Program-made: the position numbers and the translations under genes
The notes under the pieces: model-generated
Seen by the model: the letters and a program-made list of their open reading frames with translations, nothing else
What the model was told of the DNA's origin: nothing
The model's database searches: none
Source: Escherichia coli
GTDB taxonomy: Bacteria; Pseudomonadota; Gammaproteobacteria; Enterobacterales; Enterobacteriaceae
DNA length: 64,000 nt
Direction: 5' to 3' (one strand)
NCBI RefSeq assembly: GCF_001677475.2
Contig: NZ_CP015229.1
Shown here: positions 3,133 to 54,306 of the stretch, one piece after another
Layout: every line of letters starts with the position of its first letter
How positions within the stretch are numbered: the stretch's first letter is position 1

Positions 3133-3207
3133 ATGACGTTGTCTCCTTATTTGCAAGAGGTGGCGAAGCGCCGCACTTTTGCCATTATTTCTCACCCCAA
3201 TAATTAA
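3133..3207 (+). pseudogene. prfC: Displaced 5' end of prfC (first ~21 codons) left at attL, running into phage DNA to a stop
   Basis: ATG at 3133 encodes [22 protein letters not shown] then diverges (NN*) after the att core; the full prfC is at 54307. Confidence 0.8.
3184..3197. other. attL core (ATTATTTCTCACCC), left prophage junction
   Basis: Identical 14-bp sequence recurs at 54355..54368 inside the intact prfC 5' end; flanking ~20 bp match with one mismatch. Confidence 0.75.
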
Positions 3208-3361: not shown

Positions 3362-3418
3362 TGTACATATGCTTGTACATAATGTACAAAGCAGCAGAGG
3401 TGTTTTGCGATTTGTACA
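3362..3418. promoter_or_regulatory. Cluster of four TGTACA-containing repeats (TTGTACATA / ATGTACAAA) between attL and int; candidate integrase arm-type sites
   Basis: ctgTACAtatgctTGTACATAATGTACAAAg ... tTGTACAag; the same 9-mers recur near attR (54172..54286). Confidence 0.4.
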
Positions 3419-33057: not shown

Positions 33058-33403
33058 TTTTCAGAATGCCTTTGATGCCGCCCTTGCCGGGGTGGACAGT
33101 ACGATTGTTGAAGTGATGGGCATCAGTGCGCAGTTCACCTCCGGTGCACAGCGTGGCGGCGAGGTTCATGGCGTTTTTGACGATCCGGAGTCGCTGGGTT
33201 TTGCCAGTAGTGGGATCCGTATTGAAGGAAGCAACCCGTCATTATTTGTGCTTACGGATACGGTTTGTGCTGTACGGCGTGGTGACACGCTGACCATTAA
33301 CGGCGAGATATTCTGGGTGGATCGTGTTTCTCCGGATGACGGAGGGAGTTGTTATCTCTGGCTCAACCGGGGGCAACCACCTGCCGTTAACCGTCGCCGC
33401 TGA
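33050..33403 (+). CDS. FII: Head-tail connector FII
   Basis: 117 aa from MRDFQNAF; C-terminus VDRVSPDDGGSC.LWL.RG.PPAVNRRR as in lambda FII. Confidence 0.85.
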   Translation: MRDFQNAFDAALAGVDSTIVEVMGISAQFTSGAQRGGEVHGVFDDPESLGFASSGIRIEGSNPSLFVLTDTVCAVRRGDTLTINGEIFWVDRVSPDDGGSCYLWLNRGQPPAVNRRR

Positions 33404-33414
33404 AAGGGGGATGT

Positions 33415-33993
33415 ATGGCCATAAAAGGTCTTGAGCAGGCCGTTGAAAACCTCAGCCGTATCAGCAAAACGGCGGTGCCTGGTGCCGCCGCAATGGCCAT
33501 TAACCGCGTTGCTTCATCCGCGATATCGCAGTCGGCGTCACAGGTTGCCCGTGAGACAAAGGTACGCCGGAAACTGGTAAAGGAAAGGGCCAGGCTGAAA
33601 AGGGCCACGGTCAAAAATCCGCAGGCCAGAATCAAGGTTAACCGGGGGGATTTGCCCGTAATCAAGCTGGGTAACGCGCGGATTGTCCTGCCCCGACGCA
33701 GGCGTCGTAAAAAGGGGCAGCGTTCAGCCCTGAAAGGTGGCGGCAGCGTGCTTGTGGTGGGAAACCGTCGTATTCCCGGCGCGTTTATTCAGCAACTGAA
33801 AAATGGCCGCTGGCATGTTATGCAGCGTGTGGCCGGGAAAAACCGTTACCCCATTGATGTAGTGAAAATCCCGATGGCGGTGCCGCTGACCACGGCGTTT
33901 AAACAAAATATTGAGCGGATACGGCGTGAACGTCTTCCGAAAGAGCTGGGCTATGCGCTGCAGCATCAACTGAGGATGGTAATAAAGCGATGA
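33415..33993 (+). CDS. Z: Tail completion protein Z
   Basis: 192-aa lambda gpZ-like. Confidence 0.85.
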   Translation: MAIKGLEQAVENLSRISKTAVPGAAAMAINRVASSAISQSASQVARETKVRRKLVKERARLKRATVKNPQARIKVNRGDLPVIKLGNARIVLPRRRRRKKGQRSALKGGGSVLVVGNRRIPGAFIQQLKNGRWHVMQRVAGKNRYPIDVVKIPMAVPLTTAFKQNIERIRRERLPKELGYALQHQLRMVIKR

Positions 33994-34385
33994 AACATAC
34001 TGAACTCCGTGCAGCCGTACTGGATGCACTGGAGAAGCATGACACCGGGGCGACGTTTTTTGATGGTCGCCCCGCTGTTTTTGATGAGGCGGATTTTCCG
34101 GCAGTTGCCGTTTATCTCACCGGCGCTGAATACACGGGCGAAGAGCTGGACAGCGATACCTGGCAGGCGGAGCTGCATATCGAAGTTTTCCTGCCTGCTC
34201 AGGTGCCGGATTCAGAGCTGGATGCGTGGATGGAGTCCCGGATTTATCCGGTGATGAGTGATATCCCGGCACTGTCAGATTTGATCACCAGTATGGTGGC
34301 CAGCGGCTATGACTACCGGCGCGACGATGATGTGGGCCTGTGGAGTTCAGCCGATCTGACTTATGTCATTACCTATGAAATGTGA
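33990..34385 (+). CDS. U: Tail terminator protein U
   Basis: 131 aa; matches recalled lambda gpU almost residue for residue. Confidence 0.95.
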
Positions 34386-34392
34386 GGACGCT

Positions 34393-35133
34393 ATGCCTGT
34401 ACCAAATCCTACAATGCCGGTGAAAGGTGCCGGGACCACCCTGTGGGTTTATAAGGGGAGCGGTGACCCTTATGCGAATCCGCTTTCAGACGTTGACTGG
34501 TCGCGTCTGGCAAAAGTTAAAGACCTGACGCCCGGCGAACTGACCGCTGAGTCCTATGACGACAGCTATCTCGATGATGAAGATGCAGACTGGACTGCGA
34601 CCGGGCAGGGGCAGAAATCCGCCGGAGATACCAGCTTCACGCTGGCGTGGATGCCCGGAGAGCAGGGGCAGCAGGCGCTGCTGGCGTGGTTTAATGAAGG
34701 TGATACCCGTGCCTATAAAATCCGCTTCCCGAACGGCACGGTCGATGTGTTCCGTGGCTGGGTGAGCAGTATCGGTAAGGCGGTGACGGCGAAGGAAGTG
34801 ATCCCCCGTACGGTGAAGGTCACCAATGTGGGCCGTCCGTCAATGGCAGAAGATCGCAGTACGGTAACAGCGGCAACCGGTATGACTGTGACGCCTGCCA
34901 GCTCCTCGGTGGTGAAAGGGCAGAGCACCACGCTGACCGTGGCATTCCAGCCGGAGGGCGCAACTGACAAGAGCTTCCGTGCGGTGTCAGCGGATAAAAC
35001 AAAAGCCACCGTGTCGGTCAGTGGTATGACCATCACCGTGAAAGGCGTTGCTGCAGGCAAGGTCAACATTCCGGTTGTATCCGGTAATGGTGAACTTGCT
35101 GCGGTTGCAGAAATCACTGTCACCGACAGTTAA
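34393..35133 (+). CDS. V: Major tail protein V
   Basis: [31 protein letters not shown]...; near-identical to recalled lambda gpV including the C-terminal Ig-like domain. Confidence 0.95.
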
Positions 35134-35148
35134 TCCGGAGAGTCAGCG

Positions 35149-35571
35149 ATGTTCCTGAAAACCGAATCATTTGAACATAACGGCGTGACCGTCACGCTTT
35201 CTGAACTGTCAGCCCTGCAGCGTATTGAGCATCTCGCCCTGATGAAACGGCAGGCAGAACAGGCGGAGTCAGACAGCAACCGGCAGGTTACTGTGGAAGA
35301 CGTCATCAGAACCGGTGCTTGTGTGGTGGCGATGTCCCTGTGGCATAACCATCCGAAGAAGACGCAGATGCCGTCCATGAATGAAGCCGTTAAACAGATT
35401 GAGCAGGAAGTGCTTACCACCTGGCCCACAGAGGCAATTTCTCATGCTGAAAACGTGGTGTACCGGCTGTCCGGAATGTATGAGTTTGTGGTGAATGATG
35501 CCCCTGACCAGGCAGAGGACGCCGGGCCTGCAGAGCCTGTTTCTGCGGGAAAGTGTTCGACGGTGAGCTGA
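35149..35571 (+). CDS. G: Tail assembly chaperone G
   Basis: 140-aa lambda gpG-like; ends just past the slippery site. Confidence 0.9.
   Translation: MFLKTESFEHNGVTVTLSELSALQRIEHLALMKRQAEQAESDSNRQVTVEDVIRTGACVVAMSLWHNHPKKTQMPSMNEAVKQIEQEVLTTWPTEAISHAENVVYRLSGMYEFVVNDAPDQAEDAGPAEPVSAGKCSTVS
35547..35553 (+). other. Programmed -1 ribosomal frameshift slippery heptamer GGGAAAG (G to G-T fusion)
   Basis: G GGA AAG in the G frame, followed by the T ORF in the -1 frame. Confidence 0.85.
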
Positions 35572-35987
35572 GTTTTGCCCTGAAACTGGCGCGCGAGATG
35601 GGGCGACCCGACTGGCGTGCCATGCTTGCCGGGATGTCATCCACGGAGTATGCCGACTGGCACCGCTTTTACAGTACCCATTATTTTCATGATGTTCTGC
35701 TGGATATGCACTTTTCCGGGCTGACGTACACCGTACTCAGCCTGTTTTTCAGCGATCCGGATATGCATCCGCTGGATTTCAGTCTGCTGAACCGGCGCGA
35801 GGCTGACGAAGAGCCTGAAGATGATGTGCTGATGCAGAAAGCGGCAGGGCTTGCCGGAGGTGTCCGCTTTGGCCCGGACGGGAATGAAGTTATCCCTACT
35901 TCCCCGGATGTGGCGGACATGACGGAGGATGACGTAATGCTGATGACAGTATCAGAAGGGATCGCAGGAGGAGTCCGGTATGGCTGA
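35553..35987 (+). CDS. T: Tail assembly protein T (expressed as G-T frameshift fusion)
   Basis: -1 frame ORF downstream of the slippery site; lambda gpT-like. Confidence 0.85.
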   Translation: MFDGELSFALKLAREMGRPDWRAMLAGMSSTEYADWHRFYSTHYFHDVLLDMHFSGLTYTVLSLFFSDPDMHPLDFSLLNRREADEEPEDDVLMQKAAGLAGGVRFGPDGNEVIPTSPDVADMTEDDVMLMTVSEGIAGGVRYG

Positions 35988-38541
35988 ACCGGTAGGCGAT
36001 CTGGTCGTTGATTTGAGTCTGGATGCGGCCAGATTTGACGAGCAGATGGCCAGAGTCAGGCGTCATTTTTCCGGTACGGAAAGTGATGCGAAAAAAACAG
36101 CGGCAGTCGTTGAACAGTCGCTGAGCCGACAGGTGCTGGCTGCACAGAAAGCGGGGATTTCCGTCGGGCAGTATAAAGCCGCCATGCGTATGCTGCCTGC
36201 ACAGTTCACCGACGTGGCCACGCAGCTTGCAGGCGGGCAAAGTCCGTGGCTGATCCTGCTGCAACAGGGGGGGCAGGTGAAGGACTCCTTCGGCGGGATG
36301 ATCCCCATGTTCAGGGGGCTTGCCGGTGCGATCACTCTGCCGATGGTCGGGGCCACCTCGCTGGCGGTGGCGACCGGTGCGCTGGCGTATGCCTGGTATC
36401 AGGGCAACTCAACCCTGTCCGATTTCAACAAAACGCTGGTCCTTTCCGGCAATCAGGCGGGACTGACGGCAGATCGTATGCTGGTCCTGTCCAGAGCCGG
36501 GCAGGCGGCAGGGCTGACGTTTAACCAGACCAGCGAGTCACTCAGCGCACTGGTTAAGGCGGGGGTAAGCGGTGAGGCTCAGATTGCGTCCATCAGCCAG
36601 AGTGTGGCGCGTTTCTCCTCTGCATCCGGCGTGGAGGTGGACAAGGTCGCTGAAGCCTTCGGGAAGCTGACCACAGACCCGACGTCGGGGCTGACGGCGA
36701 TGGCACGCCAGTTCCATAACGTGACGGCGGAGCAGATTGCGTATGTTGCTCAGTTGCAGCGTTCCGGCGATGAAGCCGGGGCATTGCAGGCGGCGAACGA
36801 GGCCGCAACGAAAGGGTTTGATGACCAGACCCGCCGCCTGAAAGAGAACATGGGCACGCTGGAGACCTGGGCAGACAGGACTGCGCGGGCATTCAAATCC
36901 ATGTGGGATGCGGTGCTGGATATTGGTCGTCCTGATACCGCGCAGGAGATGCTGATTAAGGCAGAGGCTGCGTTTAAGAAAGCAGACGACATCTGGAATC
37001 TGCGCAAGGATGATTATTTTGTTAACGATGAAGCGCGGGCGCGTTACTGGGATGATCGTGAAAAGGCCCGTCTTGCGCTTGAAGCCGCCCGAAAGAAGGC
37101 TGAGCAGCAGACTCAACAGGACAAAAATGCGCAGCAGCAGAGCGATACCGAAGCGTCACGGCTGAAATATACCGAAGAGGCGCAGAAGGCTTACGAACGG
37201 CTGCAGACGCCGCTGGAGAAATATACCGCCCGTCAGGAAGAACTGAACAAGGCACTGAAAGACGGGAAAATCCTGCAGGCGGATTACAACACGCTGATGG
37301 CGGCGGCGAAAAAGGATTATGAAGCGACGCTGAAAAAGCCGAAACAGTCCGGCGTGAAGGTGTCTGCGGGCGATCGTCAGGAAGACAGTGCTCATGCTGC
37401 CCTGCTGACGCTTCAGGCAGAACTCCGGACGCTGGAGAAGCATGCCGGAGCGAATGAGAAAATCAGCCAGCAGCGCCGGGATTTGTGGAAGGCAGAAAGT
37501 CAGTTCGCGGTACTGGAGGAGGCGGCACAACGTCGCCAGCTGTCCGCACAGGAGAAATCCCTGCTGGCGCATAAAGATGAGACGCTGGAGTACAAACGCC
37601 AGCTGGCTGCACTTGGCGACAAGGTTACGTATCAGGAGCGCCTGAACGCGCTGGCGCAGCAGGCGGATAAATTCGCACAGCAGCAACGGGCAAAACGGGC
37701 CGCCATTGATGCGAAAAGCCGGGGGCTGACTGACCGGCAGGCAGAACGGGAAGCCACGGAACAGCGCCTGAAGGAACAGTATGGCGATAATCCGCTGGCG
37801 CTGAATAACGTCATGTCAGAGCAGAAAAAGACCTGGGCGGCTGAAGACCAGCTTCGCGGGAGCTGGATGGCAGGCCTGAAGTCCGGCTGGAGTGAGTGGG
37901 AAGAGAGCGCCACGGACAGTATGTCGCAGGTAAAAAGTGCAGCCACGCAGACCTTTGATGGTATTGCACAGAATATGGCGGCGATGCTGACCGGCAGTGA
38001 GCAGAACTGGCGCAGCTTCACCCGTTCCGTGCTGTCCATGATGACAGAAATTCTGCTTAAGCAGGCAATGGTGGGGATTGTCGGGAGTATCGGCAGCGCC
38101 ATTGGCGGGGCTGTTGGTGGCGGCGCATCCGCGTCAGGCGGTACAGCCATTCAGGCCGCTGCGGCGAAATTCCATTTTGCAACCGGAGGATTTACGGGAA
38201 CCGGCGGCAAATATGAGCCAGCGGGGATTGTTCACCGTGGTGAGTTTGTCTTCACGAAGGAGGCAACCAGCCGGATTGGCGTGGGGAATCTTTACCGGCT
38301 GATGCGCGGCTATGCCACCGGCGGTTATGTCGGTACACCGGGCAGCATGGCAGACAGCCGGTCGCAGGCGTCCGGGACGTTTGAGCAGAATAACCATGTG
38401 GTGATTAACAACGACGGCACGAACGGGCAGATAGGTCCGGCTGCTCTGAAGACGGTGTATGACATGGCCCGCAAGGGTGCCCGTGATGAAATTCAGACAC
38501 AGATGCGTGATGGTGGCCTGTTCTCCGGAGGTGGACGATGA
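35980..38541 (+). CDS. H: Tape measure protein H
   Basis: 853-aa ORF, near-identical to recalled lambda gpH. Confidence 0.95.
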   Translation: MAEPVGDLVVDLSLDAARFDEQMARVRRHFSGTESDAKKTAAVVEQSLSRQVLAAQKAGISVGQYKAAMRMLPAQFTDVATQLAGGQSPWLILLQQGGQVKDSFGGMIPMFRGLAGAITLPMVGATSLAVATGALAYAWYQGNSTLSDFNKTLVLSGNQAGLTADRMLVLSRAGQAAGLTFNQTSESLSALVKAGVSGEAQIASISQSVARFSSASGVEVDKVAEAFGKLTTDPTSGLTAMARQFHNVTAEQIAYVAQLQRSGDEAGALQAANEAATKGFDDQTRRLKENMGTLETWADRTARAFKSMWDAVLDIGRPDTAQEMLIKAEAAFKKADDIWNLRKDDYFVNDEARARYWDDREKARLALEAARKKAEQQTQQDKNAQQQSDTEASRLKYTEEAQKAYERLQTPLEKYTARQEELNKALKDGKILQADYNTLMAAAKKDYEATLKKPKQSGVKVSAGDRQEDSAHAALLTLQAELRTLEKHAGANEKISQQRRDLWKAESQFAVLEEAAQRRQLSAQEKSLLAHKDETLEYKRQLAALGDKVTYQERLNALAQQADKFAQQQRAKRAAIDAKSRGLTDRQAEREATEQRLKEQYGDNPLALNNVMSEQKKTWAAEDQLRGSWMAGLKSGWSEWEESATDSMSQVKSAATQTFDGIAQNMAAMLTGSEQNWRSFTRSVLSMMTEILLKQAMVGIVGSIGSAIGGAVGGGASASGGTAIQAAAAKFHFATGGFTGTGGKYEPAGIVHRGEFVFTKEATSRIGVGNLYRLMRGYATGGYVGTPGSMADSRSQASGTFEQNNHVVINNDGTNGQIGPAALKTVYDMARKGARDEIQTQMRDGGLFSGGGR

Positions 38542-38867
38542 AGACCTTCCGCTGGAAAGTGAAACCCGGTATGGATGTGGCTTCGGTCCCTTCTGTAAGA
38601 AAGGTGCGCTTTGGTGATGGCTATTCCCAGCGAGCGCCTGCCGGGCTGAATGCCAACCTGAAAACGTACAGCGTGACGCTTTCTGTCCCCCGTGAGGAGG
38701 CCACGGTACTGGAGTCGTTTCTGGAAGAGCACGGGGGCTGGAAATCCTTTCTGTGGACGCCGCCTTATGAGTGGCGGCAGATAAAGGTGACCTGCGCAAA
38801 ATGGTCGTCGCGGGTCAGTATGCTGCGTGTTGAGTTCAGCGCAGAGTTTGAACAGGTGGTGAACTGA
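38538..38867 (+). CDS. M: Minor tail protein M
   Basis: 109-aa lambda gpM-like. Confidence 0.92.
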   Translation: MKTFRWKVKPGMDVASVPSVRKVRFGDGYSQRAPAGLNANLKTYSVTLSVPREEATVLESFLEEHGGWKSFLWTPPYEWRQIKVTCAKWSSRVSMLRVEFSAEFEQVVN

Positions 38868-40943: not shown

Positions 40944-42370
40944 ATGGGTAAAGGAAGCAGTAAGGGGCATACCCCGCGCGAAGCGAAGGACAACCTGAAG
41001 TCCACGCAGTTGCTGAGTGTGATCGATGCCATCAGCGAAGGGCCGGTTGAAGGTCCGGTGGATGGATTAAAAAGCGTGCTGCTGAACAGTACGCCGGTGC
41101 TGGACACTGAGGGGAATACCAACATCTCCGGTATCACGGTGGTGTTCCGTGCCGGTGAGCAGGAGCAGACACCGCCGGAGGGGTTTGAATCCTCCGGCTC
41201 CGAGACGGTGCTGGGTACGGAAGTGAAATATGACACGCCGATCACCCGCACCATTACGTCTGCAAACATCGACCGTCTGCGCTTTACCTTCGGTGTACAG
41301 GCACTGGTGGAAACCACCTCAAAGGGTGACAGGAATCCGTCGGAAGTCCGTCTGCTGGTTCAGATACAACGTAACGGTGGCTGGGTGACGGAAAAAGACA
41401 TCACCATTAAGGGCAAAACCACCTCGCAGTATCTGGCCTCGGTGGTGGTGGATAACCTGCCGCCGCGCCCGTTTAATATCCGGATGCGCAGGATGACGCC
41501 GGACAGCACCACAGACCAGCTGCAGAACAAAACGCTCTGGTCGTCATACACCGAAATTATCGATGTGAAACAGGGCTACCCGAACACGGCACTGGTCGGC
41601 GTGCAGGTGGACTCGGAGCAGTTCGGCAGCCAGCAGGTGAGCCGTAATTATCATCTGCGCGGGCGTATTCTGCAGGTGCCGTCGAATTATAACCCGCAGA
41701 CGCGGCAATACAGCGGTATCTGGGACGGAACGTTTAAACCGGCATACAGCAACAACATGGCCTGGTGTCTGTGGGATATGCTGACCCATCCGCGCTACGG
41801 CATGGGGAAACGTCTTGGTGCGGCGGATGTGGACAAATGGGCGCTGTATGTCATCGGCCAGTACTGCGACCAGTCAGTACCGGACGGCTTTGGCGGCACG
41901 GAGCCGCGCATCACCTGTAATGCATACCTGACCACACAGCGCAAGGCGTGGGATGTGCTCAGTGATTTCTGCTCGGCGATGCGCTGTATGCCGGTATGGA
42001 ACGGGCAGACGCTGACGTTCGTGCAGGACCGACCATCAGATAAGGTGTGGACCTATAACCGCAGTAATGTGGTGATGCCGGATGATGGCGCGCCGTTCCG
42101 CTACAGCTTCAGCGCCCTGAAGGACCGCCATAATGCCGTTGAGGTGAACTGGATTGACCCGAACAACGGCTGGGAGACGGCGACAGAGCTTGTTGAAGAT
42201 ACGCAGGCCATTGCCCGTTACGGTCGTAATGTCACGAAGATGGATGCCTTTGGCTGTACCAGCCGGGGGCAGGCACACCGCGCCGGGCTGTGGCTGATTA
42301 AAACGGAACTGCTGGAGACGCAGACCGTGGATTTCAGCGTGGGTGCTGAAGGGCTTCGCCATGTACCGGG
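40944..42370 (+). pseudogene. J: Tail tip/host-specificity protein J, 5' fragment (~476 codons) truncated by IS insertion
   Basis: Lambda J-like N-terminus ending ...GLRHVPG at the IS junction; track ORF runs a few codons into the IS to a stop. Confidence 0.9.
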
Positions 42371-42463
42371 TATGAGACGACAATAACTCAGTCCGCCTGG
42401 CGCCGATTATTCTGGCCGGTTTTGTAACCTGAGTGTCATTTACATGATCCAACAGGAAATGGC

Positions 42464-43963
42464 GTGACGCTCAATACTTCTCAGGTCAGTTACTATATGA
42501 CTCAGCGTAAGAAAGGTATAACTCAGCATATCTCGGCCATGAAGGCTGGTATCTCAGTCCGTTCTGGTCGTCGGATCGAAAAAGGAGAGTGGGCAAAAAA
42601 CAGTGTTCGGCACTGGCGCACACGCAAAGATCCTCTGGAAGCTGTGTGGGACAGCATGCTTGTTCCTCTGTTGAAAGAGAGGCCGGCTCTGACACCAACA
42701 ACTCTACTGGAGATGCTACAGGATAAATATCCCGGCCAGTACCCCAACAGCCTTCGAAGAACAATGCAACGGCGGGTTCGCGAATGGAAACTACAGTATG
42801 GTACAGAGCAGGAGGTCATGTTCCGCCAGCAACATCAGCCCGGCCTGCGAGGCCTGTCGGACTTTACTGAACTGAAAGGTGTAGTTGTCACCATCGCCGG
42901 TAAGTTGTTGGCGCATAAGTTGTATCACTTCCGTCTGGAATGGAGCCACTGGAGCTGGATGCGGGTTGTTCTGGGTGGTGAGAGCTTCTCTGCTCTGGCT
43001 GAAGGCCTGCAGGAAGCCCTCGGACAACTGGGCGGAGTGCCGGTAGAACATAAAACGGACAGCCTGAGGGCAGCATGGAAACAACAGGGCGAAGATGGAC
43101 GCCGCGAGCTGACTGAGCGTTATGCTACTCTCTGTCAGCACTACGGAATGCAGGGCGTACACAATAATGCCGGTCGGGGCCACGAAAATGGCTCGGTTGA
43201 AAGTGCCCACGGACATCTGAAAAGGCGTATCTGTCAGGCGCTGATACTGCGGGGCAGTAACGACTTCAGCACCATAGAAGAATATCAGGCCTTCATCACT
43301 CAGCAGGTTATGCGGCACAACCGTAACAATCAGGATCTGGTCAAGGAAGAACGTCTTCATCTGAAACCGCTGCCGCTTCGTCGCAGTGCTGACTATGATG
43401 AGCTGACTGTGAGGGTTAGTCGCAGCAGTACCATCAATGTGAAGCACGTCGTCTACAGCGTACCTTCCCGGCTTGTAGGTCAACTGTTACGGGTCAGGTT
43501 ATGGGACGATCGTCTGAGCTGTTACGTTGGCAGCAGCGAGGTCATGAGCTGCCCTCGCGTCAGACCAGAAAAAGGGAAGACGCGGGCCCGTCGTATCGAC
43601 TTCCGACATGTGATCGACAGTCTGGCAAAAAAGCCCGGTGCGTTCTGCCATGCAACGCTGAGAAATGACATCCTGCCGGACGATGAATGGCGGAGGCTGT
43701 GGCGTCGCTTATGTAATCATCTGGAGCCCGATATGGCAGGAAGGCTGATGGTACATGCCCTGAAACTGGCTGCAGGATACGACGATATCTCAGTCGTGGC
43801 AAAAGGTATGGAGCAGATGCTGAATACCCCGGGAAACGTGGATCTGCACCGGCTGATGCGCTTCCTGGGTATAAAAGAAAAGGCGTTGCCGGTAGTCAAT
43901 GTGATACAGCATAACCTGAGCAGTTATGAGCAACTACTGCGTGGCAAGGGAGGTTCGCAGTGA
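42464..43963 (+). CDS. istA: IS21-family transposase IstA
   Basis: 499-aa ORF with N-terminal HTH and DDE-type core; followed by overlapping IstB. Confidence 0.8.
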   Translation: MTLNTSQVSYYMTQRKKGITQHISAMKAGISVRSGRRIEKGEWAKNSVRHWRTRKDPLEAVWDSMLVPLLKERPALTPTTLLEMLQDKYPGQYPNSLRRTMQRRVREWKLQYGTEQEVMFRQQHQPGLRGLSDFTELKGVVVTIAGKLLAHKLYHFRLEWSHWSWMRVVLGGESFSALAEGLQEALGQLGGVPVEHKTDSLRAAWKQQGEDGRRELTERYATLCQHYGMQGVHNNAGRGHENGSVESAHGHLKRRICQALILRGSNDFSTIEEYQAFITQQVMRHNRNNQDLVKEERLHLKPLPLRRSADYDELTVRVSRSSTINVKHVVYSVPSRLVGQLLRVRLWDDRLSCYVGSSEVMSCPRVRPEKGKTRARRIDFRHVIDSLAKKPGAFCHATLRNDILPDDEWRRLWRRLCNHLEPDMAGRLMVHALKLAAGYDDISVVAKGMEQMLNTPGNVDLHRLMRFLGIKEKALPVVNVIQHNLSSYEQLLRGKGGSQ

Positions 43964-44715
43964 GCAATATCCATCACCTTGAACATAGCCTGCGTAAACT
44001 ACGCCTGACACGAGTTGGAGCTGAATGGCACGCTCTGGAAAAACGAGCGCTGGCAGAAGGCTGGACACCATCGCGCTATCTTCTGACGCTATGCAATGAA
44101 GAACTCCTGTGGCGCGAGAGTGAAAAACTGCGTCGTTATAAAAAGGAGGCCCGGTTGCCAGTTGCCAAAACGCTGAGCGAATACGACTTCAGTCAGGTGC
44201 CGGAACTGAATGGAGCTCAGTTCCGGCAACTCTGTGAAACGACAGACTGGGTTGATGCAGGAGAAAACGTTCTGCTGTTCGGAGCCAGCGGGTTGGGGAA
44301 AAGCCATCTGGCGGCAGCGATCGTGGATGGCGTAGTAGGTCAGGGCTACCGGGCCCGGTTCTACAGCGCAGGAGAGCTGTTGCAGGAACTACGTAAAGCC
44401 AGAGCTCAGTTGAAACTGAATGAGCTGCTACTGAAACTGGATCGCTACCGGGTGATAGTGGTGGATGATCTTGGCTATGTCAAACGCGATAGTGCCGAAA
44501 CGGGTGTGCTGTTCGAGTTAATAGCGCATCGCTATGAACGTGGGAGCCTGGTGATAACCAGTAACCATCCGTTCAGCATGTGGGGCAGCATCTTCGTGGA
44601 TGAGACTATGGCGGTGGCTGCGGCAGACAGGCTGATCCATCACGGATATATGTTCGAACTGAAAGGGGAAAGCTACAGGAAAAAGACAGCGAAGGCAGTA
44701 ACAAGCGCGACTTGA
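43960..44715 (+). CDS. istB: IS21-family ATP-binding helper IstB
   Basis: Walker A (LLFGASGLGKSHLA), Walker B (VVDDLGYV) and C-terminal DRLIHHG motif. Confidence 0.88.
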   Translation: MSNIHHLEHSLRKLRLTRVGAEWHALEKRALAEGWTPSRYLLTLCNEELLWRESEKLRRYKKEARLPVAKTLSEYDFSQVPELNGAQFRQLCETTDWVDAGENVLLFGASGLGKSHLAAAIVDGVVGQGYRARFYSAGELLQELRKARAQLKLNELLLKLDRYRVIVVDDLGYVKRDSAETGVLFELIAHRYERGSLVITSNHPFSMWGSIFVDETMAVAAADRLIHHGYMFELKGESYRKKTAKAVTSAT

Positions 44716-44781
44716 TGTCGCCCTGAAGGGTGCGGCCAGTATAGTTGGCGCGAGTCGGCAAAACTAGTTGACGTCTAATAA

Positions 44782-46773
44782 CCGGGCGATGTCATTGAAA
44801 TCTGCGATGATGACTATGCCGGTATCAGCACCGGTGGTCGCGTGCTGGCGGTGAACAGCCAGACCCGGACGCTGACGCTCGACCGTGAAATCACGCTGCC
44901 ATCCTCCGGTACCACGCTGATAAGCCTGGTTGACGGAAGTGGTAATCCGGTCAGCGTGGAGGTTCAGTCCGTCACCGACGGACTTAAGGTGAAAGTGAAC
45001 CGGGTTCCTGACGGCGTTGCAGAATACAGCGTGTGGGGGCTGAAGCTGCCGACGCTGCGCCAGCGCCTGTTCCGCTGCGTGAGTATCCGTGAGAACGACG
45101 ACGGCACGTATGCCATCACTGCCGTGCAGCATGTACCGGAAAAAGAAGCCATCGTGGATAACGGGGCGCACTTTGACGGCGACCAGAGCGGCACGGTGAA
45201 TGGTGTCACGCCGCCAGCGGTGCAGCACCTGACCGCCGAAGTCACCGCAGACAGCGGGGAATATCAGGTGCTGGCGCGCTGGGACACGCCGAAGGTGGTG
45301 AAGGGCGTGAGCTTCCTGCTCCGTCTGACCGTAACAGCGGATGACGGCAGTGAGCGGCTGGTCAGCACGGCCCGGACGACGGAAACCACATACCGCTTCA
45401 CGCAACTGGCGCTGGGGAACTACAGGCTGACAGTCCGGGCGGTAAATGCGTGGGGGCAGCAGGGCGATCCGGCGTCGGTATCGTTCCGGATTGCCGCACC
45501 GGCAGCACCGTCGAGGATTGAGCTGACGCCGGGCTATTTTCAGATAACCGCCACGCCGCATCTTGCCGTTTATGACCCGACGGTACAGTTTGAGTTCTGG
45601 TTCTCGGAAAAGCGGATTACCGATATCAGGCAGGTTGAAACCACAGCCCGCTATCTTGGTACGGCGCTGTACTGGATAGCCGCCAGTATCAATATCAAAC
45701 CGGGCCATGATTATTACTTTTATATCCGCAGTGTGAACACCGTTGGCAAATCGGCATTCGTGGAGGGCGTCGGTCGGGCGAGCGATGATGCGGAAGGTTA
45801 CCTGGATTTTTTCAAAGGCAAGATAACCGAATCCCATCTCGGTAAAGAGCTGCTGGAAAAAGTTGATTTGACGGAGGATAACGCCAGCAGACTGGATGAG
45901 TTTTCGAAAGAGTGGAAGGACGCTAACGATAAATGGAATGCCATGTGGGGCGTCAAAATTGAGCAGACCAAAGACGGCAAACATTATGTCGCGGGTATTG
46001 GCCTCAGCATGGAGGACACGGAGGAAGGCAAGCTGAGCCAGTTTCTGGTTGCCGCTAACCGTATCGCGTTTATTGACCCGGCAAACGGGAATGAAACGCC
46101 GATGTTTGTGGCGCAGGGCAACCAGATATTCATGAACGACGTGTTCCTGAAGCGCCTGACAGCCCCCACCATTACCAGCGGTGGCAGTCCTCCGGTATTT
46201 TCCCTGACATCAGACGGAAAGCTGACCGCTAAAAATGCGGATATCAGTGGTAGTGTGAATGCGAACTCAGGAACGCTCAACAATGTCACGATTAACCAGA
46301 ACTGTACGATTAAGGGCATGCTGGAGGCGACTCAGGTCAGAGGTGACTTCGTTAAAGCTGTATCCAAATCATTTCCGAAACAGGCTGGTACGTGGGGTAA
46401 CACGGAAACACCAAACGGGACGGTTACAGTCACCATCAGCGATGATCATAACTTTGACCGTCAAATCATTATTCCGCCCATTATCTTTAACGGAATAGCG
46501 TATAGCGATCCGGGAAGTGGTAATAACCCGGGAGGTACAAGATACACGGGTTATGGTTTTGAAGTTCGCAAAAACGGTGTATTAATCGCATCCAGAGAAA
46601 CTAAAGGGGCCATTCCCGGTAGCTACAGTGCGGTTATTGATATGCCGAGTGGCAGGGGAAGCGTCACTCTGGAGTTTAAGGTTTTCCATAAAGGCAATCA
46701 GTGGGCAGGTAATATCACCGACTGTACGGTGATTGTGACCAAAAAAGCCGCTTCCGGCATCAGTATTCGTTGA
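44782..46773 (+). pseudogene. J: Tail tip/host-specificity protein J, 3' fragment
   Basis: Resumes in frame ([29 protein letters not shown]...) exactly as lambda J continues after ...HVPG. Confidence 0.9.
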
Positions 46774-47506: not shown

Positions 47507-50446
47507 ATGGCAGTAAAGATTTCAGGTGTACTGAAAGACGGCACAGGAAAACCGGTACAGAACTGCACAATCCAGCTGAAAGCAAAACGTAACAGCACCA
47601 CGGTGGTGGTGAACACGCTGGCCTCAGAAAATCCGGATGAAGCCGGGCGTTATAGCATGGACGTTGAGTACGGTCAGTACAGCGTTATTCTGTTGGTGGA
47701 AGGATGCCCGCCGTCACATGCCGGGACCATCACCGTGTATGAAGATTCCCGACCCGGTACGCTGAATGATTTTCTCGGTGCCATGACGGAGGATGATGCC
47801 CGTCCGGAGGCTCTGCGCCGTTTTGAACTGATGGTGGAAGAGGTGGCGCGTAACGCGTCCGCGGTGGCACAGAACACGGCAGCCGCGAAGAAGTCAGCCG
47901 GCGATGCCGGCACATCTGCCCGTGAGGCGGCAACCCATGCGACTGATGCTGCAGATTCAGCACGTGCAGCCAGCACGTCAGCCGGACAGGCCGCGACGTC
48001 AGCTCAGGAGGCTTTTTCCTGCGCAGGAACGGCATCAGCAAAAGCCTCTGAGGCATCAAAAAGTGCTGCCGCTGCAGAGTCCTCAAAAAGCGCGGCGGCC
48101 ACCAGTGCCGGTGCCGCGAAAACGTCTGAAACGAATGCTGCAGCGTCACAACAATCAGCAGCCACTTCTGCATCCACCGCGACCACGAAAGCGTCAGAAG
48201 CTGCCACCTCAGCCCGGGATGCGTCGGCTTCAAAAGAGGCGGCAAAATCATCAGAAACGAGCGCAGCCTCGAGCGCAAGTAGTTCCGCTTCCTCGGCAAC
48301 AGCGGCAGCAAATTCTGCGAAGGCGGCAAAAACGTCCGAGACGAACGCCAGGTCTTCTGAAACGGCAGCGGAACAGAGCGCCTCAGCTGCGGCAGGTTCA
48401 GAAACTACCGCTGCATCATCAGCCCGTGAGGCGTCAGTCAAAGCGGAGGAGGCTGCAGCCAGTGCCACTGCCGCCGGAAAATCGGCAGAAAGCGCCGCAT
48501 CATCCGCTTCAACAGCCACAACGAAGGCTGGCGAAGCCACTGAACAGGCCAGCGCAGCAGCGAGGTCAGCTTCCGCAGCGAAGACATCCGAAACGAACGC
48601 GAAAGCGTCGGAAACCAGCGCAGAATCCTCAAAAACGGCTGCCGCATCGTCCGCCAGTTCGGCGGCGTCATCGGCCTCATCGGCGTCTGCTTCAAAAGAT
48701 GAGGCGACCAGACAAGCGTCAGCAGCGAAGGGCAGCGCCACGACGGCATCCACGAAGGCAACAGAGGCTGCTGGCAGTGCGACGGCGGCAGCACAGAGCA
48801 AAAGTACGGCGGAATCCGCGGCAACGCGCGCCGAGACAGCGGCAAAACGGGCAGAGGATATTGCATCCGCCGTGGCGCTTGAGGATGCGAGCACGACGAA
48901 AAAGGGGATAGTACAGCTCAGCAGTGCGACCAACAGCACTTCCGAGTCACAGGCGGCAACGCCAAAGGCAGTAAAAGCAGCCAATGACAATGCTGAGAAA
49001 CGTCTGCAGAAAGATCAGAACGGTGCGGATATCCCTGGCAAAGACACCTTTACGAAAAATATTGGTGCCTGCCGTGCCTTCGGTGGGTCAGTAAGCACAA
49101 CAACAGGAAACTGGACGACTGCACAGTTTATCGAGTGGCTGGATTCTCAGGGAGCATTTAACCATCCATACTGGATGTGCAAGGGTTCCTGGTCTTATGG
49201 CAATAATAAAATCATTACTGATACTGGCTGCGGTAATATTCATCTCGCCGGAGCTGTCATTGAAGTAATGGGGATAAAGTCAGCGATGACGATCCGCATT
49301 ACCACTCCGACTACATCCAGCGGTGGCGGAACAACCAACGCCCAGTTTACCTATATTAATCACGGAACAGATTATTCACCTGGCTGGCGAAGGGACTATA
49401 ACTCCAGAAATAAGCCAACGGCATCAGAGATCGGGGCGCTACCGTCAGGTGGAACAGCAGTATCATCAGTTAATCTGGCTTCAAAAGGTCGGGTAGCCGC
49501 GCTGACAGACAATACGCAGGGGGCAGCAGGTCTTGAGTTATACGAGGTGTATAACAACGGATATCCAACAGCGTATGGAAATATCATTCACCTGAAAGGG
49601 ATGACAGCCGTTGGCGAAGGTGAGTTACTCATCGGCTGGAGTGGTACAAGCGGTGCTCATGCTCCGGCATTTATTCGTTCACGACGGGATACGACCGACG
49701 CAAACTGGTCGCCGTGGGCGCAGCTTTACACCTCGGCTCATCCTCCTGCAGAGTTTTATCCAGTCGGTGCACCAATCCCGTGGCCATCAGATACCGTTCC
49801 GTCTGGCTATGCCCTGATGCAGGGGCAGACTTTTGACAAATCTGCATACCCGAAACTTGCAGCGGCTTATCCGTCAGGCGTTATTCCTGATATGCGTGGC
49901 TGGACGATTAAGGGCAAGCCCGCCAGTGGTCGTGCCGTATTGTCTCAGGAACAGGACGGCATTAAATCGCACACCCACAGCGCCAGCGCATCCAGTACGG
50001 ATTTGGGGACGAAAACCACATCGTCGTTTGATTACGGCACTAAATCCACGAATAACACCGGTGCGCATACCCATAGTTTAAGTGGCAGCACGAATGCGGC
50101 TGGTAATCACAGCCATAGAGATGGCCGTCGATTTAACCCCAGTGTTTTTAAAGATACTTATCAATATGGTTATACAAGCTCAGGTCAAAATACCTGGGGG
50201 GTACAAGGCTCAGTAGGTATGTCTACGGGGTGGTTAGCTAATACCAGTACAGATGGTAATCATAGCCACTCACTGTCCGGTACAGCAGTATCTGCAGGTG
50301 CACACGCGCATACTGTCGGTATTGGTGCTCATACGCACTCCGTTGCGATAGGGTCACATGGACACACCATCACCGTTAACGCTGCTGGTAACGCGGAAAA
50401 CACCGTCAAAAACATCGCATTTAACTATATTGTGAGGCTTGCATGA
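47507..50446 (+). CDS. stf: Side tail fibre protein Stf (Ala/Ser-rich repeats; C-terminal HxH repeats)
   Basis: 979-aa ORF; long low-complexity central region; C-terminus [18 protein letters not shown]...[15 protein letters not shown] typical of lambda-type Stf. Confidence 0.85.
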
Positions 50447-51345
50447 TTACGCTCATTCTTTCTGCACCAGTAACAGAAATGGCTGAAGCATTTAAGCGGG
50501 TATTCGCAAATGCAGATAATGTGAATATTGTCGGAAAGCCATTTGAAACAATCAGGGAATTTGACTGCATGGTAAGTGCGGCAAACAGTTTCGGCCTGAT
50601 GGATGGCGGTGTTGATGCCGCCATTACCGCATTCTTCGGTACTCAGTTACAGTCCCGCGTTCAGAATCATATTCTTCGTGAATATCTCGGCGAGCAGCCT
50701 GTAGGTTCTGCATTTGTTATTGAAACGGGGCATAATCATCATCCCTGGCTGGTACATGCGCCAACAATGCGTGTTCCGCTGACAATTGACGGAACAGACG
50801 CTGTATATAACGCAACCTGGGCCGCTCTGCTTGCCATCTTTCAGCACAATAAACACGCAACGACAGACAGGAAAATAAAAACGGTGGTATTCCCTGCAAT
50901 GGGAGCCGGATGTGGTCAGGTGCCGTTTGAAAGTGTTGCCCGGCAGATGAAGCAGGCATGGGATAACTTTAATAAAAAAACAGAATCAATTAACTGGGAA
51001 TACGCACAATCCCGCCAGTCGGCAGTATTTGGCACATATGCATACTGTCCGGGTAATTCTGTTTGCCGTTATGCGGATACTAAATATATTGGATGCGGCG
51101 ATTATCGGACGTATTGCTCACGTTCCGGGCAGGTCTGTATTAACCCTGAACATCAGGCTGATGATGTACTGATACAACATCAGGCTAATAACCGGTTTCG
51201 CCCTGGTTCGCATATACACCGGATTAATCCAGAAAATCCCGTAGGTAATGTCATCTCTGGCGCACATAGCCACGGAAGTAGCATCGTTATTGGTGCTCAC
51301 ACCCATACGCTCAATAAACAATATTCTGTCTCTGATATTAAGTAG
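50443..51345 (+). CDS. Macro-domain (ADP-ribose binding/hydrolase-like) protein with tail-fibre-like His-repeat C-terminus, inserted between stf and tfa
   Basis: ATGA overlap with stf stop; macro motifs [18 protein letters not shown] and [14 protein letters not shown]; C-terminal [18 protein letters not shown] echoes the Stf C-terminus; stop 8 nt before tfa ATG. Confidence 0.6.
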
Positions 51346-51353
51346 AGGTGAAC

Positions 51354-51929
51354 ATGGATTTCAGAATGAGTGAACAACCACGGACCATAACAATTTATAA
51401 TCTGCTGGCCGGAACTAATGAATTTATTGGTGAAGGTGATGCATATATTCCGCCTCATACAGGTCTGCCAGCAAACAGTACCGATATTGCACCGCCAGAT
51501 ATTCCGGCTGGCTTTGTGGCTGTTTTCAACAGTGATGAGGCATCGTGGCATCTCGTTGAAGACCATCGGGGTAAAACCGTCTATGACGTGGCTTCCGGCG
51601 ACGCGTTATTTATTTCTGAACTTGGCCCATTACCGGAAAATGTCACTTGGTTATCCCCGGAAGGGGAGTTTCAGAAGTGGAACGGCACAGCCTGGGTGAA
51701 GGATACGGAAGCAGAAAAACTGTTCCGGATCCGGGAGGCGGAAGAAACAAAAAACAACCTGATGCAGGTAGCCAGTGAGCATATTGCGCCGCTTCAGGAT
51801 GCTGCAGATCTGGAAATTGCAACGGAGGAAGAAATCTCGTTGCTGGAAGCATGGAAAAAGTATCGGGTATTGCTGAACCGTGTTGATACGTCAACTGCAC
51901 AGGATATTGAATGGCCAGCACTGCCGTAG
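51354..51929 (+). CDS. tfa: Tail fibre assembly protein Tfa
   Basis: [41 protein letters not shown]... matches recalled lambda Tfa; SD GAGGTG upstream. Confidence 0.9.
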
Positions 51930-52026
51930 GGTAAAACATATAAATTCTATAATTAGATGTATCTTTCCATTTACGGCAAGGAAGGGGGCTTGGAAGACGT
52001 AAAGCATCTCACACCGAGATTATTTT

Positions 52027-52617
52027 TTATATGTCAGGTGTCTGAAGTTTTGCTTTGGCTCTTAAAATGGTTTGCCGCGAGGTTTTGAATTCCCGGGCAA
52101 TGGCACTTATACTTACACCTGACTTAATTCGTTCGAATACCACCTGTTTCTGTTCTTCATTTAACACAGGTGGTCGACCAAAACGTTTCCCTGCGCCCCG
52201 GGCTCTTACTATCCCGGAATGAGTGCGTTCAAGTAAAAGGTCTCGTTCAAATTCAGCGACTGCTGAAATTACTTGCATCATCATTTTTCCTGTTGGACTG
52301 GTCAGGTCAATGCCCCCCAATGCTAAGCAATGCACTCTGATACCTGTTTCGGTCAGTTGTTCCACTGTTTTCCTGATATCCATTGCATTACAACCAAGGC
52401 GATCCAGTTTTGTCACAATCAATTGATCACCACATTTCAGGCGAGCAAGCAACCGGTTAAAACCAGGACGCTCACTGGTTGCTGCTGAGCCGCTAATGTG
52501 TTCTTCGATTATTTGCTGAGGTTTGATTTTAAAACCTGCACTTTCGATTTCCCGGCGTTGATTTTCGGGGGTCTGATCCAGCGTTGATATCCGACAGTAA
52601 GCAAAAATTCGAGACAT
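52027..52617 (-). CDS. pin: Serine recombinase / DNA invertase (Pin/Hin/Gin family)
   Basis: 196-aa [18 protein letters not shown]... with catalytic Ser motif and C-terminal HTH; adjacent to tfa as in e14/Rac/Qin. Confidence 0.88.
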
Positions 52618-52996
52618 AGTGAGACTCTATACGAAATTGGTGTACATATCATAATGCATATCCAAAAATTATTTCGCTTATTATTGTACATATTTGTATG
52701 TATACGTTCGAAAATAAACGAATTCGGATGCAGTCCCGTAATTTTGGTGTAACCAAAAATCGATTTTTTGAAAAATGGCTTTAACTCGGTTTGTTTTTCG
52801 AACTCCGGGCGGACTCGAGGAAGACGAATAATAGTGTTGTATGTTATTTTAACCAGATTTTAAGTTGTTTGGTCGTGGAAAAGTGGAGCAAAATGTTGTT
52901 AAAGTGGAAAAATGGTAAAAAAAGTAGGTTGTTGCGGAATAACGTAGTTGTTGATATTTTTTTAATGCATTGAAAAATTATTTTTCAGGGGGGGTA

Positions 52997-53230
52997 TTAC
53001 ACTTTACCATTTAAATTTTGGTTGTCTTTAAGAACTGATATCGCTGTTTGTAATAATTCTTTGTTATCCAGCCATGACTTTTTCTTTATGTTTCCTTCAA
53101 TGTAATCAAGCAATGTTCTGGTATTGATAGGTCTTCCCTGTTTTGCTACTTCCACGACAGCATCTCCCAGGATAATTCTGACTTCAGGAAGCTGCGCAGG
53201 GAACCACTTTAGGGTGTCTTTTGATTTCAT
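52997..53230 (-). CDS. YdfK/YnaE-like cold-shock-induced prophage protein
   Basis: MKSKDTLKWFPAQLPEVRIILGDAVVEVAKQGRPINTRTLLDYIEGNIKK...; matches recalled YdfK; start trimmed to internal Met. Confidence 0.75.
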   Translation of the reverse strand: MKSKDTLKWFPAQLPEVRIILGDAVVEVAKQGRPINTRTLLDYIEGNIKKKSWLDNKELLQTAISVLKDNQNLNGKV

Positions 53231-53298
53231 GAAGATATTCCTTAAAATATTATTGGTTTTCATTGCAATATTGTATGTCTGATTCAGGATATGTTGAC

Positions 53299-53412
53299 TT
53301 ATACATCGGTTTTGTCCGGGTTATTGGATATGCCAATCCCTAATTTTATTAGAGCATGACCAAAAATGCTGAATATGATAAGTAGTGAAGTGATTATCAG
53401 TATGCTGTTCAT
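53299..53412 (-). CDS. Hypothetical 37-aa hydrophobic membrane peptide (type I toxin-like)
   Basis: Hand-translated [37 protein letters not shown]; SD GAGG 4 nt upstream; TTGTCA/TATATA promoter-like elements upstream. Confidence 0.3.
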
Positions 53413-54171: not shown

Positions 54172-54286
54172 TGTACAAATGTTCTTTGGCTACAAATACA
54201 CCTACTGATCATGTTCTGCTATGCTCTGATACCTCCAAAATGTACAATCAGCGGCATGAATTTTTCTTTGTACATATGATTGTACA
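54172..54286. promoter_or_regulatory. TGTACA-containing repeats near attR (ATGTACAAA, TTGTACATA x2); candidate arm-type sites overlapping the phage-borne prfC promoter region
   Basis: Same 9-mers as at 3362..3418 near attL. Confidence 0.4.
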
Positions 54287-54306
54287 TAATCAAAGAGACA
54301 ACAATT

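What the first reader, a model, noticed from the sequence alone, without database searches (positions are those of the whole stretch)
35547..35553. Conserved G-T programmed -1 frameshift
The GGGAAAG heptamer sits at the end of G with T in the -1 frame, as in lambda.
Basis: established knowledge. Interest (0 to 1): 0.2.

Follow-up and report, generated by a model that had tools for sequence, protein, structure and literature searches.

The report
Lambda-type G-T tail chaperone frameshift
This is the textbook slippery sequence of phage lambda, sitting unchanged in a lambda-like prophage of E. coli, where about one ribosome in 25-30 slips back one base to make a longer tail-assembly chaperone; it is real but ordinary and already known.

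Summary
GGGAAAG at 35547-35553 lies in phase (G GGA AAG) in a 140-codon ORF whose stop is 21 nt downstream. A 144-codon ORF continues in the -1 frame. The two ORFs are Pfam Phage_TAC_2 (gpG) and Phage_tail_T (gpT), lying between the tail-tube gene V and the tape-measure gene H. The G-T segment is 97.5% identical to phage lambda, and 35530-35593 is identical to it.

The heptamer alone is not enriched in the window (10 copies against 8.4 expected). The case rests on context and conservation:
- In 166 related loci a shift-prone heptamer sits at the same position: GGGAAAG 78, GGAAAAG 83, AAAAAAG 5.
- AAAG is invariant while the flanks vary.
- Conserved T-frame coding starts right at the site.
- The GTG that annotators use as the T start is present in only 20 of 83 distinct contexts.

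The reading as the lambda G/GT programmed -1 ribosomal frameshift is supported and already known.

Two side results:
- The prophage's tail-tip gene J is split by an ISEc10 insertion, so this copy probably cannot build tails on its own.
- A predicted stem-loop starts 7 nt after the heptamer. It is conserved, but the evidence for it is not compelling.

The parts
35149..35571 (+). Gene G (tail assembly chaperone gpG, 140 aa). This is the zero-frame product, ending ...PVSAGKCSTVS*. A GGAG Shine-Dalgarno sequence lies at 35137-35140.
   Evidence: ORF list. Pfam PF06894 Phage_TAC_2, E=3.4e-58. It differs from lambda gpG mainly in the middle of the protein.
35547..35553 (+). Slippery heptamer G GGA AAG. 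The P-site tRNA-Gly re-pairs from GGA to GGG, and the A-site tRNA-Lys re-pairs from AAG to AAA.
   Evidence: Sequence and phase. It is identical to the lambda site. It is conserved at this position in 166 loci, and AAAG is invariant. Literature.
35553..35987 (+). T segment (-1 frame, 144 codons plus stop). It is translated only as the C-terminal part of gpGT, which is 135 + 144 = 279 aa with junction ...PVSAGK|VFDGELSF...
   Evidence: Translation. Pfam PF06223 Phage_tail_T, E=2e-14. Conserved T-frame residues begin directly after the heptamer in all relatives.
34393..35133 (+). Gene V (tail tube protein), upstream neighbour. According to the literature it is the binding partner of the T domain.
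   Evidence: Pfam PF16461 plus Big_2. tblastn against the M114 annotation. Review PMC5009743.
35980..38541 (+). Gene H (tape measure protein), downstream neighbour. According to the literature it is the binding partner of the G domain.
   Evidence: Pfam TMP_2 and Tape_meas_lam_C. Full length, 853 aa.
35561..35631 (+). Predicted stem-loop starting 7 nt 3' of the heptamer. The outer helix pairs 35561-35568 with 35624-35631; the inner GC-rich hairpin pairs 35587-35602 with 35607-35622. Whether it belongs to the signal is unresolved.
   Evidence: MFE -40.3 kcal/mol, z=-2.9 for the exact 90 nt. 94.7% of cells are paired in 57 sequences, but 13 of 22 pairs never vary. At least 12 of 341 neighbouring windows fold better.

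Best explanation
This is the programmed -1 ribosomal frameshift site of the lambda G/GT tail assembly chaperone pair, carried by a lambda-like prophage of E. coli.

Most ribosomes translating G read GCG GGA AAG TGT ... and stop at TGA 35569-35571, giving gpG (140 aa).

A small fraction slips back one base, reported as about 4% in lambda, or a 30:1 ratio. The slip happens with tRNA-Gly on GGA in the P site and tRNA-Lys (mnm5s2UUU) on AAG in the A site. The tRNAs re-pair to GGG and AAA. The ribosome then reads GTG TTC GAC ... to the stop at 35985-35987, giving the 279-aa fusion gpGT.

According to the lambda literature, the G part of both proteins binds the tape measure protein H. The T part recruits the tail tube protein V. 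Neither protein stays in the finished tail.

Shown here: the sequence, phase, frames, homology and conservation. Inferred from lambda: that slippage occurs, its rate, and the protein functions.
For: - Heptamer in phase, G stop 21 nt downstream, -1 ORF of 144 codons.
- G is PF06894, T is PF06223, and they are flanked by V and H.
- 97.5% identity to lambda, with only 21 differences in 839 nt; 35530-35593 is identical.
- GenBank records of relatives annotate the site as a frameshift: HK630 'tail assembly protein GT', lambda imm21 'frameshift product GT', N15 and LLS 'slippery sequence'.
- 166 related loci all carry GGGAAAG, GGAAAAG or AAAAAAG at the same position, while the upstream 21 nt diverge.
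- Gifsy-2, Ayreon and Vibrio phage HY01 (32-41% T identity) have an in-phase GGAAAAG or CCCAAAA just before the G stop.
- T-frame amino-acid conservation (xELxFxxxLAREMGRPDWRAMLAGM) begins immediately after the heptamer. The first possible start codon in most relatives is 33-75 nt further on.
- Literature: lambda slippery sequence G_GGA_AAG, about 96% zero frame, dependence on tRNA-Lys U34 thiolation (PMC3296357; PMC7618472). 30:1 ratio and chaperone roles (PMC5009743). G_GG.A_AA.G is among the most shift-prone heptamers in E. coli (PMC4066793).
Against: - Nothing in the sequence argues against it.
- No protein or ribosome data exist for this particular prophage.
- Its J gene is interrupted by ISEc10. 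The chaperones may therefore have no productive role in this strain unless J is supplied by another prophage.
- RefSeq annotation of the near-identical M114 prophage lists T as a separate CDS rather than a joined one. That is an annotation convention, not evidence.
Confidence: 0.95

Rival explanations
1. T is an independent gene started at GTG 35553, as it is drawn in RefSeq and most GenBank records. On this view the heptamer is incidental.
For: A GTG lies at 35553, and PGAP calls a 144-aa 'phage tail assembly protein T' from it. One record even marks GGG as a ribosome binding site.
Against: - The purine run ends 2 nt before the GTG, which is too close for a Shine-Dalgarno sequence.
- No other anti-SD match lies upstream.
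- In 63 of 83 distinct related contexts the same codon is GCC, GTC, GCA, GCG or GTA. The next start codon is 33-75 nt downstream, inside conserved coding sequence.
- The T frame is closed only 9-57 nt upstream of the heptamer.
- The lambda literature describes gpG and gpGT as the products.
Confidence: 0.03
2. The -1 product arises from RNA polymerase slippage (loss of one base) in the G3 or A3 run, not from ribosome slippage.
For: Homopolymer runs are present in the heptamer. Transcriptional realignment is a known alternative route to trans-frame proteins (PMC5009743).
Against: - Runs of three bases are far shorter than known transcriptional slippage sites (established knowledge).
- The gpG:gpGT ratio in lambda responds to thiolation of tRNA-Lys U34. 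That places the event on the ribosome (PMC3296357).
- The invariant A_AAG tetramer is the classic ribosomal -1 motif in E. coli.
Confidence: 0.01
3. The site is intact but is a biologically idle relic in this strain. It is a qualifier of function, not of mechanism. The prophage cannot assemble tails, so the frameshift is preserved only because the damage is recent.
For: - J is split at 42371-44780 by an ISEc10 element with a 6-bp target duplication.
- The closest genome, M114, lacks the insertion.
- The IS is 99.8% identical to copies elsewhere, which suggests a recent event.
- In lambda, J is needed to start tail assembly (established knowledge).
Against: - All other late genes from terS to tfa are full length.
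- Most E. coli genomes carry two or more lambda-type G-T copies: median 2 places per genome.
- J could therefore be supplied in trans or restored by recombination.
Confidence: 0.4

Closest known systems
Phage lambda G / G-T programmed -1 frameshift (Levin, Hendrix & Casjens 1993; Xu, Hendrix & Duda 2013, 2014)
   Same: Same heptamer, same phase and same 21-nt distance to the G stop. The 64 nt around the site are identical. The gene order V-G-T-H is the same. gpGT is 279 aa with only 10 substitutions.
   Different: It lies in a mosaic prophage at the yjjG/prfC locus. The early and lysis modules are not lambda's. The J gene is broken by ISEc10. G differs from lambda's at 9 residues and T at one.
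G-T type frameshifts of N15, phi80-like (mEp213, LLS), Stx1/VT1-Sakai and Gifsy-2 phages (Xu, Hendrix & Duda 2004, conserved tail-chaperone frameshift)
   Same: Homologous G and T proteins. The slip site is at the same aligned position, and A_AAG is always kept.
   Different: These use G GAA AAG or A AAA AAG instead of G GGA AAG. In some, the G stop is 6-9 nt rather than 21 nt after the site.
E. coli dnaX and IS911/IS3 -1 frameshifts
   Same: -1 slippage of tRNA-Lys on A_AAG within an X_XXA_AAG heptamer.
   Different: Those are boosted to much higher efficiencies (up to 54% in IS3-based reporter constructs) by an upstream SD-like element and a downstream hairpin or pseudoknot. Here no SD-like element is present. 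A downstream structure is only weakly supported. The lambda rate is about 4%.

Membership tests
Lambda-type G/GT tail assembly chaperone -1 PRF | Two overlapping ORFs located between the major tail (tube) gene and the tape measure gene | tested here: met
   V 34393-35133, G 35149-35571, T 35553-35987, H 35980-38541
Lambda-type G/GT tail assembly chaperone -1 PRF | Upstream ORF homologous to gpG and downstream ORF homologous to gpT | tested here: met
   PF06894, 195 bits (cut-off 27). PF06223, 54 bits (cut-off 25.9)
Lambda-type G/GT tail assembly chaperone -1 PRF | Slippery heptamer X XXY YYZ in phase with the upstream frame, a few codons before its stop, with the downstream ORF in the -1 frame | tested here: met
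   G GGA AAG, stop 21 nt downstream, -1 ORF open for 438 nt from the heptamer
Lambda-type G/GT tail assembly chaperone -1 PRF | Slip site conserved in position among diverged homologues | tested here: met
   166 of 166 evaluable loci carry one of three shift-prone heptamers, and AAAG is invariant. Gifsy-2, Ayreon and Vibrio HY01 are also in phase.
Lambda-type G/GT tail assembly chaperone -1 PRF | Downstream ORF has no translational start of its own; conserved coding begins at the slip site | tested here: met
   A GTG exists at 35553 in this sequence but has no usable SD. The codon is not a start codon in 63 of 83 related contexts. Conserved T residues precede the first shared ATG. Sequence alone cannot fully exclude weak initiation at the GTG here.
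Lambda-type G/GT tail assembly chaperone -1 PRF | gpGT fusion actually made at a few per cent of gpG, and required for tail assembly | not testable with these tools
   Known for lambda only (PMC3296357; PMC5009743). The slip region here is identical to lambda's.
Stimulated bacterial -1 PRF (dnaX / IS3 type) | SD-like element 6-17 nt upstream of the heptamer | tested here: not met
   The best anti-SD duplex in the 30 nt upstream is -3.0 kcal/mol, at -30.
Stimulated bacterial -1 PRF (dnaX / IS3 type) | Stable stem-loop or pseudoknot 5-9 nt downstream, supported by covariation | tested here: inconclusive
   - A stem starts 7 nt downstream, with z=-2.9.
- 94.7% of cells are paired, but there is only one clade-level compensatory change.
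- At least 12 of 341 neighbouring windows fold better.
- Synonymous identity is 0.78 against 0.56, p=0.015.

The most novel reading that the evidence does not exclude
The stem-loop that begins 7 nt after the heptamer (35561-35631) may be a conserved, modest stimulator or tuner of the G-T frameshift. This would run against the current view that tailed-phage G-T shifts use no stimulatory signal. It would also explain why lambda's roughly 4% exceeds the sub-1% values reported for bare heptamers in reporters.

A stable structure at about the same distance is predicted in four of five independent lineages (lambda-type, N15-type, Gifsy-2, Vibrio HY01, but not Ayreon), although with different pairings.
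Probability: 0.12. Interest if true: 0.35.

Novelty: already known. Interest (0 to 1): 0.08.

Why it matters
It does not change anything known. It is another copy of one of the best-studied recoding signals, in one of thousands of E. coli prophages: 3,702 of 5,426 complete genomes have a match.

It has two practical uses:
- For annotation, T should be drawn as a joined G-T CDS (35149..35553, 35553..35987), not as a free gene starting at GTG.
- The comparative set gathered here shows cleanly that A_AAG is the invariant core, while the first three bases alternate between GGG, GGA and AAA.

Tried and rejected
- **Heptamer frequency.** GGGAAAG is not enriched in the window, so frequency gives no support.
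- **Other in-phase heptamers with frameshift-like geometry.**
  - AAATTTG at 11733 is at the end of a Rha-family gene whose neighbour overlaps it by 4 nt, so it is probably chance.
  - TTTAAAA at 52533(-) is on the minus strand next to the recombinase ORF 52027-52617. I did not examine it further and dismissed it as chance.
  - TTTCCCC at 39664(-) is antisense to a real gene.
- **Upstream SD-like stimulator.** None was found.
- **Downstream structure.**
  - A 100-nt fold gave z=-1.69.
  - The exact 90 nt gave z=-2.9.
  - Covariation is limited to one clade-level event.
  - The local background scan shows many equally or better folding windows.
  - I kept this only as a low-probability reading.
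- **Coordinate mapping.** I first mapped window coordinates onto E. coli M114 with a fixed offset. This failed past 42370, because the window carries an extra 2,410-bp IS. A BLAST corrected it.
- **Literature access.** Xu et al. 2013 (PMC3762263) is not held. Levin et al. 1993 is not in the library. Their results are cited through PMC3296357, PMC5009743 and PMC7618472. PMC3296357 prints the slippery sequence as GGGTTTG in its text but as GGGAAAG in its Table 1.

Full report
**Observation**

The heptamer GGGAAAG is at 35547-35553 on the + strand. The 140-codon ORF 35149-35571 reads ...GCG GGA AAG TGT TCG ACG GTG AGC TGA. The heptamer is therefore in the X XXY YYZ phase (G GGA AAG), and the stop lies 21 nt downstream.

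The -1 frame is closed by a TGA just before 35508. It is then open to the stop at 35985-35987. A -1 slip on the heptamer would join 135 residues of G to 144 residues of the T frame. The result is a 279-aa protein with the junction ...PVSAGK|VFDGELSF.

**Is it more than chance?**

The heptamer by itself is not. It occurs 10 times in the window against 8.39 expected, and 45 of 100 shuffles had at least 10.

Of the nine + strand copies, only this one is in phase at the end of a long ORF with a long -1 ORF after it. A window-wide scan for that geometry with any X XXY YYZ heptamer finds 4 sites against 0.085 in shuffles. The other three do not stand up:
- AAATTTG at 11733 lies at the end of a Rha-family gene whose neighbour overlaps it by 4 nt. 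That layout automatically puts the neighbour in the -1 frame.
- TTTCCCC at 39664 is on the minus strand, antisense to a real gene.
- TTTAAAA at 52533 is on the minus strand next to the recombinase ORF 52027-52617. I did not examine it further.

The shuffle control also ignores the fact that overlapping genes are common in phages. The argument therefore rests on homology and conservation, not on this count.

**What the genes are**

| ORF | Window coordinates | Pfam match | Score |
|---|---|---|---|
| G | 35149-35571 | PF06894, lambda tail assembly chaperone G | E=3.4e-58 |
| T | 35553-35987 | PF06223, minor tail protein T | E=2e-14 |
| V | 34393-35133 | PF16461 plus Big_2, lambda tail tube protein | E=1.2e-69 (PF16461) |
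| H | 35980-38541 | TMP_2 plus Tape_meas_lam_C, tape measure | E=7.4e-70 (TMP_2) |

The Z and U genes precede V.

The 951 nt around the site are 97.5% identical to phage lambda (J02459 / NC_001416) and up to 98.2% identical to other lambdaviruses. Within G-T there are 21 differences in 839 nt, and none lies between 35530 and 35593. The experimentally studied lambda signal is therefore present unchanged.

GenBank records of relatives say the same thing in words:
- HK630: 'tail assembly protein GT'.
- Lambda imm21: 'tape measure chaperone frameshift product GT'.
- N15 and LLS: explicit 'slippery sequence' features.

**Where the window comes from**

The segment matches the chromosome of E. coli strain M114 at 100% over the G-T region and at 99.5-99.8% over the rest. 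G-T belongs to a roughly 51-kb lambdoid prophage between yjjG and prfC. Its integrase is at 3428-4663.

The structural module is lambda-like. The early and lysis modules are not. Matches to this G-T segment occur in 3,702 of 5,426 complete E. coli genomes, with a median of two places per genome.

**Comparative test of the signal**

I collected G-T regions from GenBank phages and from IMG/VR. The loci were anchored on the T-frame peptide DWRAM[LM]A. All 166 evaluable loci have a shift-prone heptamer at the same aligned position:

| Heptamer | Loci |
|---|---|
| GGGAAAG | 78 |
| GGAAAAG | 83 |
| AAAAAAG | 5 |

- The G stop lies 21 or 9 nt downstream.
- In 57 distinct sequences, positions 4-7 (AAAG) are invariant. 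The first three bases and the 21 nt upstream vary freely.
- Distant T homologues keep the arrangement. Gifsy-2 (41% identity) and Ayreon (38%) have an in-phase G GAA AAG. Vibrio phage HY01 (32%) has C CCA AAA. In each the site is just before the G stop.
- This fits the published view that A_AAG is the minimal -1 shift site in E. coli and that G_GGA_AAG and A_AAA_AAG are among the most shift-prone heptamers (PMC5009743; PMC4066793).

**Is T made on its own?**

RefSeq annotates T in M114 as a separate CDS starting at the GTG that overlaps the last base of the heptamer. Three results argue against that reading:
- The purine run ends only 2 nt before the GTG, and there is no other anti-SD match within 30 nt upstream.
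- The codon is GTG in only 20 of 83 distinct related contexts. Elsewhere it is GCC, GTC, GCA, GCG or GTA.
- T-frame amino-acid conservation (xELxFxxxLAREMGRPDWRAMLAGM) starts directly after the heptamer. The first start codon shared by the relatives is 75 nt downstream, and in most of them none occurs before +33.

By contrast, the zero-frame tail of G after the heptamer is poorly conserved: CSTVS, SSTAS, HSKAS, PSPVS, PLPAS or P. Selection in the overlap therefore acts on the T frame.

**Mechanism**

Shown here:
- The heptamer and its phase.
- The two frames.
- Homology to gpG and gpT.
- Conservation of the site among relatives.

Inferred from lambda:
- About 96% of ribosomes stay in frame and make gpG. 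About 4% slip back one base on G_GGA_AAG and make gpGT (PMC3296357). The molar ratio of about 30:1 is critical for tail assembly (PMC5009743).
- The single tRNA-Lys (mnm5s2UUU) reads both AAG and AAA. Loss of its 2-thio modification raises slippage and lowers phage yield (PMC3296357; PMC7618472).
- The G part binds the tape measure protein. The T part binds the tube protein V and recruits it. Both chaperones are absent from the finished tail.

**Stimulatory elements**

[quoted passage not shown] I checked both kinds.

Upstream, there is no SD-like element.

Downstream, the 90 nt after the heptamer fold into a two-helix structure that starts 7 nt from the site (-40.3 kcal/mol, z=-2.9). A 100-nt segment gave only z=-1.69.

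Evidence in favour of the structure:
- On 57 distinct sequences, 94.7% of cells are paired.
- Synonymous codon identity between the GGGAAAG and GGAAAAG clades is higher in T codons 5-25 (0.78) than in codons 26-78 (0.56). The one-sided Mann-Whitney p is 0.015.
- The corresponding 90 nt fold well in other lineages: z=-4.5 in N15, -5.1 in Gifsy-2 and -3.0 in Vibrio HY01.

Evidence against, or neutral:
- 13 of 22 pairs never vary. One pair is broken in 21 sequences. The only substantial compensatory change is a single clade-level event.
- This stretch encodes the most conserved T peptide, and a shared recombination tract would look the same.
- Ayreon gives only z=-1.1, and the Gifsy-2 pairings are not homologous to lambda's.
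- A scan of 341 overlapping 90-nt windows across 33400-38600 gives a background mean of -0.41 and sd of 1.2. At least 12 windows fold better than the one after the slip site.

I conclude that the structure is possible but not demonstrated.

One point keeps it from being dismissed. Bare heptamers in reporter constructs gave at most about ten times a background of a few hundredths of a per cent (PMC4066793). That is well below lambda's 4%. The same paper notes conserved hairpins in 3 of 5 phage clusters.

**Functional status in this strain**

All late genes from the small terminase to the tail fibre assembly gene are full length. The exception is J. It is split into residues 1-476 (40944-42371) and 475-1137 (44782-46770).

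The interruption is a 2,410-bp IS21-family element at 42371-44780:
- It has an IstA-like ORF at 42464-43963 and an IstB ORF at 43960-44715 (PF01695, E=9e-62).
- It has a 6-bp target duplication, ACCGGG, and matching terminal inverted repeats.
- It is 99.8% identical to ISEc10 copies elsewhere.
- It is absent from M114.

J starts tail assembly in lambda (established knowledge). This prophage alone therefore probably cannot use its chaperones productively. The frameshift signal is intact, but here it may be preserved only because the damage is recent.

**Verdict**

The feature is already known, and interest is low.

Noticed in passing
window 42371-44780 (J gene 40944-46773): A 2,410-bp IS21-family element (ISEc10; istA-like 42464-43963, istB 43960-44715) is inserted in the tail-tip gene J. 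It has a 6-bp target duplication, ACCGGG. It is absent from the otherwise 99.5-99.8% identical prophage of E. coli M114.
   Followed up: yes
window 50443-51345: A 300-aa macro-domain ORF (PF01661, E=8e-19) sits between the side tail fibre gene (47507-50446) and the tail fibre assembly gene (51348-51929). This is an unusual cargo position, and its role is unknown.
   Followed up: partly
window 52027-52617 (-): A serine recombinase/invertase (Resolvase plus HTH_7) lies next to the tail fibre assembly gene, as in Pin/Gin-type tail-fibre inversion systems. No convincing flanking inverted repeats were found in 50300-53400.
   Followed up: partly
window 35553-35987; L004 20454-20888: RefSeq (PGAP) and most GenBank lambdoid records annotate T as a free-standing CDS starting at the GTG that overlaps the heptamer, instead of a joined G-T CDS. 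This is a systematic annotation shortfall for this recoding event.
   Followed up: yes
window 34000-34089, 35965-36054, 35665-35769, 36745-36849: In the local scan, several 90-nt windows fold far better than shuffled controls (z from -3.6 to -4.8). Two of them lie at gene junctions: Z/U at about 33990 and T/H at about 35980. These could be translational-coupling structures.
   Followed up: no
window 3130-3198 and 3362-3383 versus 54303-54368 and 54269-54290: The prophage borders carry a 21/22-nt direct repeat, TGTACATATG(C/A)TTGTACATAAT. A diverged copy of the 5' end of prfC is at the left junction. This suggests integration into the start of prfC, with the phage supplying a replacement 5' end.
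   Followed up: partly
window 11733-11739: AAATTTG is in phase 39 nt before the stop of a Rha-family regulator gene, and the next gene is in the -1 frame. The layout looks like a frameshift site but is most simply a 4-nt gene overlap plus a chance heptamer. Conservation was not checked.
   Followed up: partly
L005, L006, L012, L013, L096-L175, L176, L177: Half of the related loci use G GAA AAG. There the P-site tRNA-Glu would re-pair on GGA with a central G-U mismatch. This suggests that slippage on A_AAG alone is enough in these phages.
   Followed up: partly
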